This document shows, in pieces, positions 12,321 to 49,088 of a DNA stretch of 64,000 nt. The notes beneath the pieces are model-generated. The model made no database searches. It saw nothing but the letters and a program-made list of their open reading frames with translations, and was not told the origin of the DNA. A program made the position numbers and the translations under genes. Positions within the stretch are counted from its first letter, which is position 1; every line of letters starts with the position of its first letter. Location of the stretch: positions 1 to 64,000 of the forward strand of contig CAXHJY010000962.1 in assembly GCA_964016885.1 (NCBI GenBank). The letters run 5' to 3'. Source of the stretch: Eledone cirrhosa (Eukaryota).

Positions 12321-12527
12321 TAGGAACATGTAGTACCCCGACGGCTGAGCTCAAGCCGTTTCGACGGCTAATTCTGGACTAAAATTTAATCCAGATTAAC
12401 CGTCGAAACGGCTTGAGCTCAGCCGTCGGGGTCCTACTTGTTCCTATTACTCACTCTACTACCCTAAGTATTGAGTACTTTGGTGCGTTAATGTCCATCT
12501 GGTTCCTTACCACACCTACTTCGTTAT
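12321..12527. mobile_element. Palindromic fold-back element (12321-12446) with 3' tail, containing an HHR 3' half
   Basis: Near-perfect ~125-bp palindrome; GAAA-CGGCT/TGAGCTC/AGCCG-TC on both strands; related copies at 14090-14182, 32980-33025 and 48891-49088. Confidence 0.8.
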
Positions 12528-13859
12528 ATATATATATATATATATATATATATATATATATATATATATATATATATATATAATTTATGAATAAATATAT
12601 ATATATAAATAAATATATATTATTCAGTTGATGTAATAAAATGATGTATGAATAAAACCTCTCTTCCTAAAAAAAAAAAAAATATATATATATATATATA
12701 TATATATATATATATATATATATATATATATATATATATATATATATATATATATATATATTATATATATATTATATGTATTTATATATAATGCGTTTGT
12801 GCACGCGTTAGCTTTCCAACATATATTCACAAAAGCTTCAACCATGTTTCAGTTTTGCGTCGCTCTTCCTCTTTTTGTCCTCCGTCTATGTCACTCCGCC
12901 TCTTACCCCTGCCACATTCTCTCTCTCTCTCTCTATCTATATCTCCCTCTCCCTCTCCATGTGTGTGTGTGTGTGTGTTTGTGCGTATAAATATACATAT
13001 ATATATATATAATATATATATATATATAGTATTAGTTATACTATTTATGGTTATGTAAACACAAAACCTTAAGCAGTTGTAAGTATTTTACACACACCCT
13101 AAATAGGAAACAGCTGTAAGCACAATAATGTTTTGAACAGTTCTTTGATTCATATATTTCATATATTTCATATATATATATATATATATATATGCATATG
13201 AAAATATACAGACGTATTAGTATATTATCTAGGCAACATTTAATTACAATAGTTAACGGGTGTGAGGTGGGTGGTGTAAATGTGCGTCCAACGGGTGTCT
13301 TTATAAAAAAAGAACAATTTTGATATCTGAGGGTCTATGAATAGAGAAGATGTTCTCGTGTTTCTGCACATTTGCGATATTACATCTATTGAAAAAGATC
13401 GAAGTACCAAGGCATGTCTTTGTCCCATTCAATATCCATTGCATCATTTCAACAAAGTTCTTAACTTACTTATCCTATTCAGCTGTATTATGCTTATTCC
13501 ATTAAATGTTTTCATTATGTACTACTTGTTTACATACCTATAAGTGTATATATATATATGAATGCATGTATAGTATATCAATATACCGTATGTTTAATTA
13601 AAACATTTAAAAAACTTTGTGCTGCTATAAAGAAGTAAGTGACATAGTCACTTATTTCTTTTTTCAGCAAAGGAAGGGAGAGAAGCTGACATATTCTGTT
13701 TCACACTGTTGGTATTCCTTTGCCGAAAATGATAGACGCTGGATTCTTATAGAATTCCAGTAATAATCAGGAATATATATATATATATATATATATATAT
13801 ATATATATATATATATATACGATATTAATAAATGGAAAGAATATTTATAAAACCATATT

Positions 13860-13924
13860 TATTTCATTATACATATTTCAGGGATAGCACATTAAATTAT
13901 GGTATGCCTTCATCAGACAAAATA
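13860..13924 (-). ncRNA. Type I hammerhead ribozyme (family shared with 32196 and 56752)
   Basis: Minus: TATTTTGT-CTGATGA-AGGCATACCA...GTGCTATCCCT-GAAA-TATGTA-TA-ATGAAAT. Confidence 0.75.
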
Positions 13925-14461
13925 CAATATATACAGTTTTACAAATAGGTTTGACGTACCCTTTTTAAAATACAACCATTACTTTTGGAGGCTGTCTGGA
14001 TAGTGATTTGTTTATATAATAAGTCATAGTGTTAAGCACAATTAGAAAAAGACGGAGAGAAAGAAAAAAGACGGAGAGAGAGAAAAGAACAAAGCCGTCT
14101 TTGGACTAATTTAAGTCCAGATCTAGTCCAAAATTAGCCGTCGAAACGGCTGAGCTCAGCCGTCGGGGTCCTACTCGTTCCTATATATATATATATATAT
14201 ATTTATATATATATATATATATTTATATATATATATATATATATTTATATATATATATATATATATATATATATATTTATATATATATATATATATTTAT
14301 ATATATATATATATATATGTAGATAAATCTACCAAGAGTTTACGTGAATATGCATGCCAATTCTAACACATATATATCCTAGAAACGATCGTTAAATAAT
14401 GAACTTTTTTTGTTTAATATAAGGAACTGTCTCATTGTTTATTCATTATTTGTTTAATATT

Positions 14462-17400
14462 TTATATATATATATTTATTTATATATATATATATATATT
14501 TATATATATATATATATATTTATATATATATATATATATTTATTTATATATATATATATATTTATATATATATATATATATTTATATATATATATATATT
14601 TATTTATATAAATATATATATTTATATATATATATATATATTTATTTATATATATATATATATTTATATATATATATATATATTTATTTATATATATATA
14701 TATATTTATATATATATATATATATTTATTTATATATATATATATTTATATATATATATATATATATTTATATATATATATATATATTTATATATATATA
14801 TATATATTTATATATATATATATATATTTATATATATATATATATTTATATATATATATATATATATTTATATATATATATATATTTATATATATATATA
14901 TATTTATATATATATATATATATATTTATATATATATATTTATATATATATATATATATATATATATATATATTTATATATATATATATTTATATATATA
15001 TATATATATATAGTATATATATTTATATATATATATTTATATATATATATATTTATATATATATATATATATATATATTTATATATATATATATTTATAT
15101 ATATATATTTATATTTATATATATATATATATATATATTTATATATATATATATATATATATTTATATATATATATTTATATATATATATATATATATAT
15201 ATTTATATATATATATTTATATATATATATATATATATTTATATATATATATTTATATATATATATATATATATATTTATATATATATATTTATATATAT
15301 ATATATATATTTATATATATATATTATATATATATATATATATTTATATATATATATTTATATATATATATATATATTTATATATATATATATATATTTA
15401 TATATATATATTTATATATATTATATATATATTTATATATATATATTTATATATATATATATATATTTATATATATATATATATATATTTATATATATAT
15501 ATTTATATATTTATATATATATATATATATTTATATATATATATATATATTTATATATATATATATATATATATATATATATATTTATATATATATATTT
15601 ATATATATATATTATATATATATATATTTATATATATATATTTATATGTATATATATTATATATTTATATATATATATATATATTTATATATATATATAT
15701 ATATTTATATATATATATTTATATATATATATTTATATATATATATATTTATATATATATATTTATATATATATATATTTATATATATATATTATATATA
15801 TATATTTATATTTATATATATTTATATTATATATATTTATATATATATATATTTATATATATATATTTATATATATATATATTTATATATATTTATATAT
15901 ATATATTTATATATATATATTTATATATATATATATATATATATTTATATATATATATTTATATATATATATACTTATGTATATATATTTATATATATAT
16001 ATTTATATATATATATATTTATATATATATATTTTATATATATATTTATATATTTATATATATATATATTTATATATATATATTTATATATTTATATATA
16101 TATATATTTATATATATATATATTTATATATATATATAAATATATATATATATATATATATTTATATATATATATTTATATATATATATATTTATATATA
16201 TATATTTATATATATATATTTATATATATTTATATATATATATTTATATATATATATTTATATATATATATATATATATATTTATATATATATATTTATA
16301 TATATATATATATATATATTTATATATATATATTTATATATATATATATATATTTATATATATATATTTATATATATATATATATATATTTATATATATA
16401 TATTTATATATATATATATATATTTATATATATATATATATATTTATATATATATTTATATATATATATATATATTTATATATATATATTTATATATATA
16501 TATATATATTTATATATATATATATATATATTTATATATATATATTTATATATTTATATATAATATATATATATTATATATATATATATATATATATATA
16601 TATATATATATATATATATATATATATATATATTTATATATATATATTTATATATATATATTTATATATATATATATTTATATATATATATTTATATATA
16701 TATATATTTATATATATATATATATATATATATTTATATATATATATATATATTTATATATATATATTTATATATATATATATATATTTATATATATATT
16801 TATATATATATATATTTATATATATATTTATATATATATTTATATATATATATATTTATATATATATATATTTATATATATATATATATTTATATATATA
16901 TATATATATATATATATTTATATATATATATATATTTATATATATATATATATATATATATATTTATATATATATATATATTTATATATATATATATATA
17001 TATATATTTATATATATATATATATTTATATATATATATATTTATATATATATATATTTATATATATATATATATTTATATATATATATATTTATATATT
17101 TATATATATATATATATTTATATATATATATATATATATATATTTATATATATATATATATTTATATATATATATATATATATATTTATATATATATATA
17201 TTTATATATATATATATATATATATATATATATATATATATATATATTTATATATATATATATATTTATATATATATATATATTTATATATATATATATG
17301 TATATATATATATATATATATATATTTATATATATATTTATATATATATATATATTTATATATATATATATTTATATATATATTTATATATATATATTAT

Positions 17401-18437
17401 TTATATATATATATATATTTATATATATATATATATTTATAATATATATATATTTATATATATATATATTTATATATATATATATTATATATATATTTAT
17501 ACATATATATATTTATATATATATATTTATATATATATATATTTATATATATATTTATATACATATATATATTTATATATATATATATTTATATATATAT
17601 TTATATATATATATATATTTATATATATATATATATTTATATACATATATATATTTATATATATATATATTTATATATATATATATATTTATATATATAT
17701 ATTATATATATATATATTTATATATAATATATATATATTTATATATATATATATTTATATATATATATATTTATAATATATATATTTTATATATATATAT
17801 ATTTATATATATATATATTTATATATATATATATTTATATATATATATATTATTTATATATATATATATATATATATATATATTTATATATATATATATA
17901 TATATATATATATTTATATATATATATATATATATATATTTATATATATATATATATATTTATATATATATATATATATATATTTATATATATATATATA
18001 TATATATATATATATATATATATATATAATTTATATATATATATATATATATATATATTTATATATATATTTATATATATATATATTTATATATATATAT
18101 ATTTATATATATATATATTTATATATATATTTATATATATAAAATATATATATATATATATTTATATATATATAATATTTATATATATAAATATATATAT
18201 ATATATATATATATATATATATATATATATATATATATTTATTTATATATATATATTTAATATATATATATATATATATATATATATATTTATTTATATA
18301 TATATATTATATATATATATTTATATATATATTTATATATATATTTATATATATATATATATATATATATATATTATTTATATATATATATATATTATAT
18401 ATATATATATATATTTATATATATATATATATATATA
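14462..18437. repeat. ~4-kb (TA)n array with TTTA interruptions
   Basis: Direct. Confidence 0.97.
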
Positions 18438-48204: not shown

Positions 48205-48390
48205 ATTTGACCCCAGTATTTTACTGGCACTATATGTACATTACTGGTGCTTTATTTTATCGACTCCTTAAGGATGAAAGTGAAACTTAACCTCGGTGGG
48301 ATTTGAACTCAGAACGTAAATGGCCGTAACTCTATGCCACAAAGCATGTTGTGCGATATTCTACTGACACTGCCAATCCACAGCCTTGTA
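48205..48390 (-). mobile_element. tRNA-derived SINE, diverged (further fragment at 48020-48120)
   Basis: SINE core on minus. Confidence 0.75.
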
Positions 48391-48639
48391 CTATACCCAT
48401 AATAACGCGATATTCCTCAGTATGGATTTGAAATTGTGTCTCATGCATAGTTCTAGTTGACAGTTTGTTTTAACTAATACTAGCAGAATGGCCCGGCGTT
48501 GCTCGGGATTTGCTATAGGGCTCTTCTATATTTGATATATATTTATCCTTATCGAGCCTCGTGAAATAGATACTTTTATTTATATTTTGTTATTGTGTAT
48601 GCAAAAATATCTGTAACGAACATATATATATATATATTT

Positions 48640-48861
48640 GCTTATAGTGGTAGTACACTGGAAGGTAATATCCGTAATGGTAGAGCACTCAGTCCCTGGG
48701 ACGAGTTGGGTAGAAGTGGTTACACAACAGTTAGTTCTCCATACCGAGAACAATTGTTTCACCTTGGCGGATCCTCAGCTCGGAAGATCCGAGCTGAGGG
48801 CCCGCTAAGGTGAAACAATTGTTCTCAGTATGGTGAACTAACTGTTGTGTAACCACTTCTA
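48640..48861. mobile_element. Palindromic fold-back (48711-48861) with tail, containing an HHR 3' half
   Basis: ~150-bp palindrome centred at CGGAAGATCCG; GAAA-CAATTG-TT on both strands. Confidence 0.8.
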
Positions 48862-48890
48862 TATATATATATATATATATGAAAATCTAC

Positions 48891-49088
48891 GAACCCAACG
48901 GCAGAGCTCAAGCCGTTTCGACGGCTATTTCTGGACTAAAATCATTTTTAGTCCAGAAATAGCCGTCGAAATGTCTTGAGCTCTGACGTCGGGTCATGCA
49001 TTTTCCATTTACCCACTCTACTACCCTAAGTATTGAGTACTCTGGTGCGTAATGGTCCATCTGGTTCCTTACCACATCTCCTTCGTTA
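48891..49088. mobile_element. Second copy of the 12321-type palindromic fold-back with tail
   Basis: Palindrome 48891-48996 and the same ~85-nt tail. Confidence 0.8.

What the first reader, a model, noticed from the sequence alone, without database searches (positions are those of the whole stretch)
12321..48996. Palindromic elements folded back at the hammerhead stem II loop
Seen: the palindromes at 12321-12446, 48891-48996 (same family) and 48711-48861 (different family) are centred on a hairpin. On both strands the hairpin is followed by GAAA-stem III-TH, and the CTGANGA half is absent. The central stems contain G.T-type mismatches, as expected for a native RNA stem. Inference: nascent cDNA snapped back on the stem II hairpin and self-primed, so the ribozyme structure set the insertion architecture and yielded a MITE-like palindrome with no catalytic core.
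Basis: partly seen in the sequence, partly recalled or inferred. Interest (0 to 1): 0.8.

Follow-up and report, generated by a model that had tools for sequence, protein, structure and literature searches.

The report
Folded-back stubs of Penelope-like retrotransposons

Summary
The three palindromes are real, but each also has an unrepeated 74-78 nt tail and sits in (TA)n. They are 5'-truncated, head-to-head-inverted 3' ends of Hydra-clade Penelope-like elements (PLEs). A copy of the family-A tail (38098) runs into a Hydra-type ORF start (E=1e-5), and the tails carry the GAGYAC-like motif seen in published Hydra 3' ends. 'CTGANGA absent' holds for family A but is false for B: 48783-48744 (minus) is a complete type I hammerhead, and B's centre lies 5' of the core, not in stem II. 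About 1,600 reads per run show B's non-palindromic parent. For A, contig ends show a parental hairpin directly 5' of GAAA whose apex is the palindrome centre, and A1 and A2 look like separate events. No CTGANGA is visible in the 51 nt that could be read, so 'stem II' is positional only. The G.T argument fails: 4 of 5 central mismatches are C.A on the sense strand. Other head-to-head PLE junctions in the window lie 55-735 nt upstream of the core or inside the ORF. Inverted truncated copies, one-sided tails and self-priming are published. Verdict: new members of a known kind; a possible family-A junction hotspot is the only new angle.

The parts
12321..12446 (+). A1 palindrome: inverted copy of the family-A 3' end joined head-to-head to the direct copy; centre about 12384 with almost no loop
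12405..12427 (+). GAAA-stem III-TC half motif of the direct arm (mirror on minus from 12362); no CTGANGA in the copy
12447..12524 (+). Unrepeated 78-nt tail (start of the next unit's 5' UTR) with GAGTAC at 12473, followed by (TA)n
48878..49008 (+). A2 palindrome (best-paired part 48893-48994; 4-nt loop 48942-48945); separate event of the same family
49009..49086 (+). A2 tail, 78 nt, followed by (TA)n
48711..48861 (-). B palindrome, element sense on minus; centre 48786, 3-nt loop, upstream of the hammerhead core
48744..48783 (-). Complete type I hammerhead motif of B: stem I 5' strand 48783-48779, CTGAGGA 48778-48772, GAAA 48760-48757, palindromic stem III, H at 48749, stem I 3' strand 48748-48744
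48789..48828 (+). Mirror hammerhead on B's other arm; core reads CTGAGGG, and the last G is private to this copy (258 of 271 X6 reads show A at 48800)
48637..48710 (-). B tail with GAGTGC motif, followed by (TA)n; family reads end at about 48643 or, tail-less, at 48711
38098..38360 (+). Family-A 5' end: tail sequence at the start of a unit, running into an ATG at 38265 and an N-terminus like that of Hydra-type RT-EN proteins
14090..14181 (+). A3: family-A 3' end without tail, ending at the unit junction in (TA)n; rearranged in the same hairpin
32978..33108 (.). A4: inverted family-A arm (32978-33023) joined to the tail of another family (C, also at 34583-34702)
28708..30643 (+). Internal control: degraded Hydra-type RT-EN element (about 29155-30643) with an inverted 5'-truncated copy (28708-29159); junction inside the ORF, arms unequal
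54263..54534 (.). Internal control: palindrome of another PLE family with two complete hammerheads (54344 minus, 54453 plus); centre about 55 nt upstream of each core

Best explanation
A1, A2 and B are dead-on-arrival insertions of two Hydra-clade Penelope-like families into (TA)n. SHOWN: anatomy (TA)n - inverted unit end - direct unit end - tail - (TA)n; the family-A tail is the start of the next unit's 5' UTR; B holds a full hammerhead; non-palindromic parents exist; both tailed and tail-less 3' ends exist. INFERRED: the element's endonuclease nicks (TA)n; RT starts at the distal internal start site of a more-than-unit RNA (giving the tail), copies about 125-150 nt and stops; the new cDNA 3' end pairs with itself and is extended back along itself up to the unit junction, where it is joined to the other target strand. 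The turn-around needs only local self-complementarity. In family A a long parental hairpin just 5' of GAAA (by position an extended stem II) supplies it repeatedly; in B the turn lies just 5' of the core with a 3-nt loop. The products are probably inert: in a transcript of B the 70-bp hairpin sequesters both cores (predicted), and A copies lack CTGANGA.
For: Tail homology to 38098-38180 (90-94%) leading to an ORF start that is the best of 1,816 window peptides against an N-terminal profile of 7 RT-EN proteins (E=1e-5, next 0.07; BLASTP 13/25). Those proteins carry DKT/DKS, RWK-like, CxCx5C (5 of 7), YRDD and YIG-T motifs, the Hydra hallmarks of PMC8557442. GAAA-to-GAGYRC spacing is 67-70 nt in A1, A2 and B against 78 and 70 nt in Hydra-2_Amil and Hydra-2_Ajap (counted by eye). 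Reads: B parents leave the reference behind 48782 (1,615 X6 and 1,484 X7 reads, agreement 0.84-0.85); B ends at 48711 (1,259/1,434 reads) and 48643 (1,820/1,976), both into TA. A parents leave behind 48940 (90 X1 contigs, agreement 0.57; 2 X5 contigs, 0.93) into letters that pair with the retained strand. The arms of each A copy share alleles: 5 of 7 informative columns group by copy, 1 by arm, 1 across, as expected if one arm was copied from the other. Self-priming was inferred from such junction palindromes in PMC3846280.
Against: Pure snap-back does not explain why copying stops exactly at the unit junction, nor A4 (arm of one family, tail of another), nor unequal arms at 28708-30643, nor the arm-to-tail joints that skip 64-130 nt; these need two cDNAs, template jumps or later deletion. 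Shared alleles between arms could also come from later conversion, and 3 of the 5 by-copy columns lie in a stretch where a 1-nt deletion in A2 makes the alignment uncertain. B's link to the Hydra clade rests on motif and geometry only; no ORF was tied to it. No full-length A or B parent was obtained.
Confidence: 0.6

Rival explanations
1. Same PLE origin, but two cDNAs: both nicked target strands prime reverse transcription, one at the distal and one at the proximal start site, and the two cDNAs anneal where the template is self-complementary (hairpin or short palindrome) and extend on each other.
For: In vitro a Poseidon protein nicks and extends both strands, starts at two sites that delimit the tail, and is modelled as a dimer (PMC11167929). 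It explains the one-sided tail directly, the chimera A4, unequal arms at 28708-30643 and the asymmetric joints. A1's almost loop-less centre coincides with an AATT in the X1 parent consensus.
Against: B's arms end symmetrically to the base at a place where the parent has no palindrome. Arms within a copy share subfamily alleles, which two independent RNAs need not do.
Confidence: 0.25
2. One reading: fold-back at the hammerhead stem II loop sets the architecture of all three and yields core-less MITE-like palindromes.
For: In family A the centre is at the apex of a parental hairpin 5' of GAAA; contigs with loops 1 or 2 nt shorter exist (22 and 8 X1 contigs); 11 of the 13 family-A joints shown start at 48929-48938 (15 of 131 joints were shown).
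Against: B has full cores and folds 5' of them. Four other head-to-head hammerhead pairs have centres about 55, 185, 490 and 735 nt upstream of the core, and one junction is inside the ORF. The central mismatches are mostly C.A on the sense strand. No CTGANGA in the 51 nt upstream of A's GAAA, whereas published Hydra hammerheads have stem II of 3-7 bp.
Confidence: 0.05
3. The palindromes arose after insertion, by DNA-level fold-back repair or inverted duplication of an ordinary truncated PLE end next to fragile (TA)n.
For: A tRNA-SINE-like repeat with no hammerhead also forms a head-to-head palindrome at 24431-24500; much of the window is (TA)n.
Against: The inverted arms stop at the PLE unit junction, the same point at which tail-less family copies end; repair would not know this point. 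The layout recurs across PLE clades in the literature (PMC8557442).
Confidence: 0.07
4. Non-autonomous DNA transposons (MITE, or hairpin-plus-tail elements such as the Crypton-related Eulor5/6 repeats).
For: Long inverted repeats flanked by TA. The 5' hairpin plus 3' tail shape of Eulor repeats is recalled, not seen in a call; PMC5753468 only assigns Eulor5/6 to Crypton.
Against: The tail leads into a PLE ORF start; B holds a hammerhead; parents are non-palindromic and reads across the exact B centre are rare (22-24 against 3,589 at 48774 in X6, although hairpins sequence poorly); arms group by copy, not by arm.
Confidence: 0.03

Closest known systems
Hydra-clade Penelope-like elements (Craig et al. 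2021, PMC8557442)
   Same: (TA)n targets, hammerhead near the 3' end, GAGYAC-like motif about 70-78 nt after GAAA, T...T flanking stem II as in B, NIP-type ORF start, inverted 5'-truncated copy (noted for Penelope-13_HM in file S1).
   Different: Tails here are 74-78 nt, against 30-40 bp given for PLEs in general. Family A's hairpin before GAAA is far longer than the 3-7 bp stem II in file S2, and its CTGANGA was not seen. A and B motifs searched in that supplement gave no hit.
Penelope insertion units with inverted pLTR, junction palindrome and one-sided tail (Arkhipova et al. 2013, PMC3846280)
   Same: Head-to-head inverted end, palindrome at the junction, tail on one side only, self-priming proposed.
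   Different: There the units carry ORFs and sometimes TSDs, and self-priming on an antisense template was favoured; the passages read do not map junctions to hammerhead helices. Here the units are 200-225 nt stubs and TSDs are unreadable in (TA)n.
Poseidon of Anolis in vitro (Frangieh et al. 2024, PMC11167929)
   Same: Two internal RT start sites delimit the tail; AT-rich target; hammerhead cleavage not needed for insertion.
   Different: Different clade; the parts read do not address inverted junctions.
PLE minimal hammerheads (Cervera and de la Pena 2014, PMC4209133)
   Same: Type I, short stem I, palindromic helix III; pairs on opposite strands 100-700 bp apart were already noted.
   Different: B's pair is only 15 nt apart and B's stem II is only 2 bp; A's stem III is 5-6 bp plus a palindromic loop.

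Membership tests
Hydra-clade PLE (family A) | ORF with Hydra-type N-terminus, RT and C-terminal GIY-YIG | tested here: inconclusive
   Only about 27 N-terminal residues are linked to the A tail (38265; E=1e-5). RT and EN of family A were not seen; the profile proteins have DKT/RWK-like/CxCx5C motifs.
Hydra-clade PLE (families A, B) | Insertion into (TA)n | tested here: met
   All three are TA-bounded; family reads run into TA at 48643, 48711 and 49076.
PLE insertion unit | Inverted 5'-truncated copy adjoining the direct copy | tested here: met
PLE insertion unit | One-sided tail continuing into the next unit; optional | tested here: met
   Tail equals the unit start at 38098; tail-less ends at 14181 and, in reads, 48711.
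Hydra-clade PLE (family B) | Hammerhead in the 3' end | tested here: met
   stem II only 2 bp; Rfam did not list it at E<=1.
Hydra-clade PLE (family B) | Linked RT-EN ORF | not testable with these tools
   No genome held; no parent in the window.
Type I hammerhead (family A) | CUGANGA and stem I 5' of stem II | tested here: inconclusive
   Absent in A1-A4 and in the 51 nt of parent readable upstream of GAAA; further upstream unseen.
Type I hammerhead (family A) | GAAA-stem III-UH at the PLE position | tested here: met
   spacing to the tail motif as in B and in two published Hydra ends.
Type I hammerhead (B) | Self-cleavage | not testable with these tools
   No RNA run was listed; needs an assay.
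MITE / DNA transposon | Element ends defined by TIRs, unit amplified as such | tested here: not met
   One end is a tail outside the inverted repeat; parents non-palindromic; arms group by copy.
MITE / DNA transposon | Target-site duplication | tested here: inconclusive
   Flanks are (TA)n on both sides.
Non-LTR retrozyme | Head-to-tail tandem units each with a type I hammerhead | tested here: not met
   Units are head-to-head singletons; definition from 10.64898/2026.07.22.740005.

The most novel reading that the evidence does not exclude
Family A carries a hammerhead with an unusually long (about 55 nt) stem II, and that hairpin is a recurrent turn-around point for the reverse transcriptase, so many independent insertions lose CUGANGA and fold at the same apex. 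With tens of thousands of such junctions in one genome, symmetric against unequal or two-family arms could be counted to decide between single-cDNA snap-back and two-strand priming, the open step of PLE integration.
Probability: 0.35. Interest if true: 0.5.

Novelty: new member of a known kind. Interest (0 to 1): 0.25.

Why it matters
How PLEs make their inverted ends and one-sided tails is stated to be unresolved (PMC8557442). These stubs are too few to settle it, but the families are abundant (about 31,000-32,000 reads laid per RAD run) and their junctions are mappable, so they are usable material. In practice, such stubs are easily mis-annotated as MITEs or microRNA hairpins (Rfam gave sub-threshold miRNA matches on all three); the tail motif and hammerhead identify them.

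Tried and rejected
No genome is held, so copies could not be collected genome-wide. The repeat finder was swamped by microsatellites. Rfam listed only one hammerhead (57891-57935, E=0.0086, below the gathering score) and none in the three palindromes. Parent motifs for A and B are not in the window at up to 3 mismatches. Collection scans: metagenomes 0 hits and 2 hits, viral contigs 0, prokaryote genomes 1 hit; all 3 loci are chance matches inside bacterial-looking coding DNA with no similarity beyond the pattern and were dropped. No RNA holder was listed, so expression was not examined. Pfam gave only sub-cutoff RVT_1 for 3 of 10 window fragments and nothing for 6 of 6 homologues, so the clade call rests on motifs. 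Read ends at 48755, 48817, 48940 and 48947 fall on AATT and are taken as RAD-library cuts, not biology (inference); they also hide family-A loose ends in X6/X7. The Crypton/Eulor idea was considered first and dropped. Earlier-findings look-ups by sequence, place and words gave nothing except one entry. The descriptor missed some evident hammerheads (e.g. 58919, 32449) and one hit (28024) lies in coding DNA and is probably chance.
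Full report
Setting. The window is AT-rich animal-type DNA with long (TA)n tracts (25,466 bases masked as tandem repeat). No genome is held. That it looks like a cephalopod is my impression from recall and was not tested. It is dense with Penelope-like (PLE) debris: a type I hammerhead descriptor gives 17 hits against 0-1 in each of 10 block shuffles, and RT/GIY-YIG fragments match a profile of full-length homologues.

Observation. The palindromes are real: 91%, 88% and 91% arm identity for A1 (12321-12446), A2 (48878-49008) and B (48711-48861). 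GAAA-stem-TH follows the centre on both strands. The tail gives the orientation: plus for A1 and A2, minus for B. CTGANGA is absent from A1 and A2 but present in B at 48778 (minus), with CTGAGGG on the mirror arm. On the sense strand the five central-stem mismatches are four C.A and one G.T, and A2 has none, so they are ordinary transitions.

Identity. The family-A tail recurs at 38098-38180 (90-94%), there at the start of a unit after (TA)n, and continues into an ATG at 38265. I searched with a window endonuclease fragment (29622-30434) and got 25 similar-length and 19 longer proteins. A profile from the 7 of 19 that I picked for having an N-terminal KNIP/KNIG motif ranks the 38265 peptide first of 1,816 window peptides (E=1e-5; next 0.07); BLASTP with P0031 gives 13 of 25 identities. 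These proteins carry DKT or DKS, RWK-like, CxCx5C (5 of 7), YRDD and YIG-T (6 of 7) motifs, matching the Hydra-clade description in PMC8557442. In that paper's Hydra consensus file, Hydra-2_Amil and Hydra-2_Ajap end with a GAGCAC motif 78 and 70 nt after the hammerhead GAAA (my count by eye); A1, A2 and B have GAGTAC/GAGTGC 67-70 nt after their GAAA, and three full hammerhead stubs in the window at 62, 63 and 92 nt. So A is a Hydra-type PLE end by ORF link, and B by motif and geometry.

Parents, from reads. I laid four of eight listed runs on 48637-49086 at 80% likeness. For B, 1,615 (X6) and 1,484 (X7) reads, 43 X1 contigs and a contig of a second organism (X5) leave the reference behind 48782 into one non-palindromic sequence, which extends stem I further. 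About 30% of reads have CTGAAGA instead of CTGAGGA (1,103 of 3,589 in X6). Only 22-24 X6 reads cover 48783-48790. Family ends fall at 48711 (tail-less) and 48643 (tailed), both into TA. For A, contigs leave behind 48940 (90 in X1, agreement only 0.57; 2 in X5, 0.93). The 30 letters shown pair with the retained strand: a 7-bp apical stem with one G.U on the sense strand, an 8-by-3 internal loop, and a basal stem of at least 7 bp in the X5 consensus (one more mismatch in each stem in X1). The palindrome centre is therefore the apex of a real parental hairpin lying directly 5' of GAAA, and the left half of the stem in A1/A2 is a copy of the right half, not the native strand. Contigs with loops 1 or 2 nt shorter exist (22 and 8), and 11 of 13 displayed family-A joints start at 48929-48938 (15 of 131 joints were displayed; the reference ends its homology with the parent at 48940, which bounds this). 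Against the stem II reading, the 51 nt readable upstream of GAAA hold no CTGANGA, published Hydra stems II are 3-7 bp, and the longest credible core-to-GAAA span in the window is 46 nt. Depths are crude, and hairpins are under-sequenced.

Independence and controls. Among the four A arms, 5 of 7 informative columns group by copy, 1 by arm and 1 across, and the loops differ, so A1 and A2 look like separate events, each arm pair from one template; later conversion is not excluded. Four other head-to-head hammerhead pairs have centres about 55, 185, 490 and 735 nt upstream of the core; only the first is a continuous palindrome. A Hydra-type element at 28708-30643 has its junction inside the ORF with arms of about 450 and 1,480 nt. 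At 32978-33108 a family-A arm is joined to another family's tail. The ribozyme thus does not fix the junction in general.

Mechanism. Most likely (0.6): target-primed RT from the distal internal start, early stop, self-primed copying back to the unit junction, then joining to the second target strand. The steps are inferred; the anatomy is shown. The main rival (0.25) is priming from both target strands with annealing of the two cDNAs at self-complementary sequence, which fits the in vitro work on Poseidon (PMC11167929) and the unequal and chimeric junctions. Both routes may operate. B's exact symmetry at a non-palindromic parental site and allele sharing between arms favour self-copying for these three.

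Known work, and what I saw of it. PMC8557442: passages, section 11, supplement searches and parts 2, 52 and 53 of 59; it describes inverted 5'-truncated copies and one-sided tails as typical. PMC3846280: passages only; it infers self-priming from palindromes at inverted junctions. PMC11167929: parts 1-2 of 4. PMC4209133: parts 1-2 of 4. PMC5753468: passages. 10.64898/2026.07.22.740005: part 1 of 5; its supplements are closed. In eight searches and the texts above I saw no report that maps PLE inversion junctions to a hammerhead helix; the library lacks most subscription papers and Repbase, so this is weak. One earlier finding of this scan, from another genome, reached the same general reading; it is not independent support.

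Verdict. Observation partly confirmed; interpretation partly supported. New members of a known kind; interest 0.25. The residual novelty is a possible recurrent turn-around at an extended stem II in family A (probability 0.35, interest 0.5 if true).

Noticed in passing
window 32978-33108 and 34583-34702: Head-to-head chimera: inverted family-A arm joined to the tail of another family (C) that occurs separately at 34583; a possible sign of two-template insertion.
   Followed up: partly
window 13820-14181: TA-bounded segment with a hammerhead end of one family on minus (core 13916) and a family-A end on plus; second possible two-family head-to-head unit.
   Followed up: partly
window 54263-54534: Palindrome with two complete hammerheads and a short direct duplication in its centre.
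   Followed up: partly
window 28708-30643: Degraded Hydra-type RT-EN element with an inverted truncated copy; further Hydra-like fragments at 61639-62354 (minus) and 25221-25577 (minus).
   Followed up: partly
window 9298-12295, 26995-28760, 31120-31816, 39826-42201: Several rearranged copies of another PLE family (RT and GIY-YIG-like fragments) with minimal hammerheads at 9486, 12084 and 31560; clade not determined.
   Followed up: no
window 32321-32460 and 34755-34889: Hammerhead-plus-tail stubs of a further family in (TA)n; the 34755 copy is cut 7 nt upstream of its core with no inversion.
   Followed up: partly
window 49335-49985: Nested inverted segments with hammerhead-like cores at 49647 (plus) and about 49355 (minus).
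   Followed up: no
window 24431-24500: A SINE-like repeat (about 12 copies in the window; tRNA origin is my recall) forms a small head-to-head palindrome with no hammerhead.
   Followed up: no
window 48968-48991: A2's direct arm has two symmetric substitutions in stem III that keep pairing while its mirror arm keeps the family letters; probably hairpin-templated mutation after insertion, not selection.
   Followed up: no
window 25550-26654: Near-identical (96-99%) direct and inverted duplications of a non-PLE segment.
   Followed up: no
window 46166-47681 and 36850-37551: LINE-like RT fragments (weak RVT_1 at 46166), the first with downstream zinc-finger-like repeats.
   Followed up: no
window 1-about 5700: Long tandem array of 7/14-nt units.
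   Followed up: no
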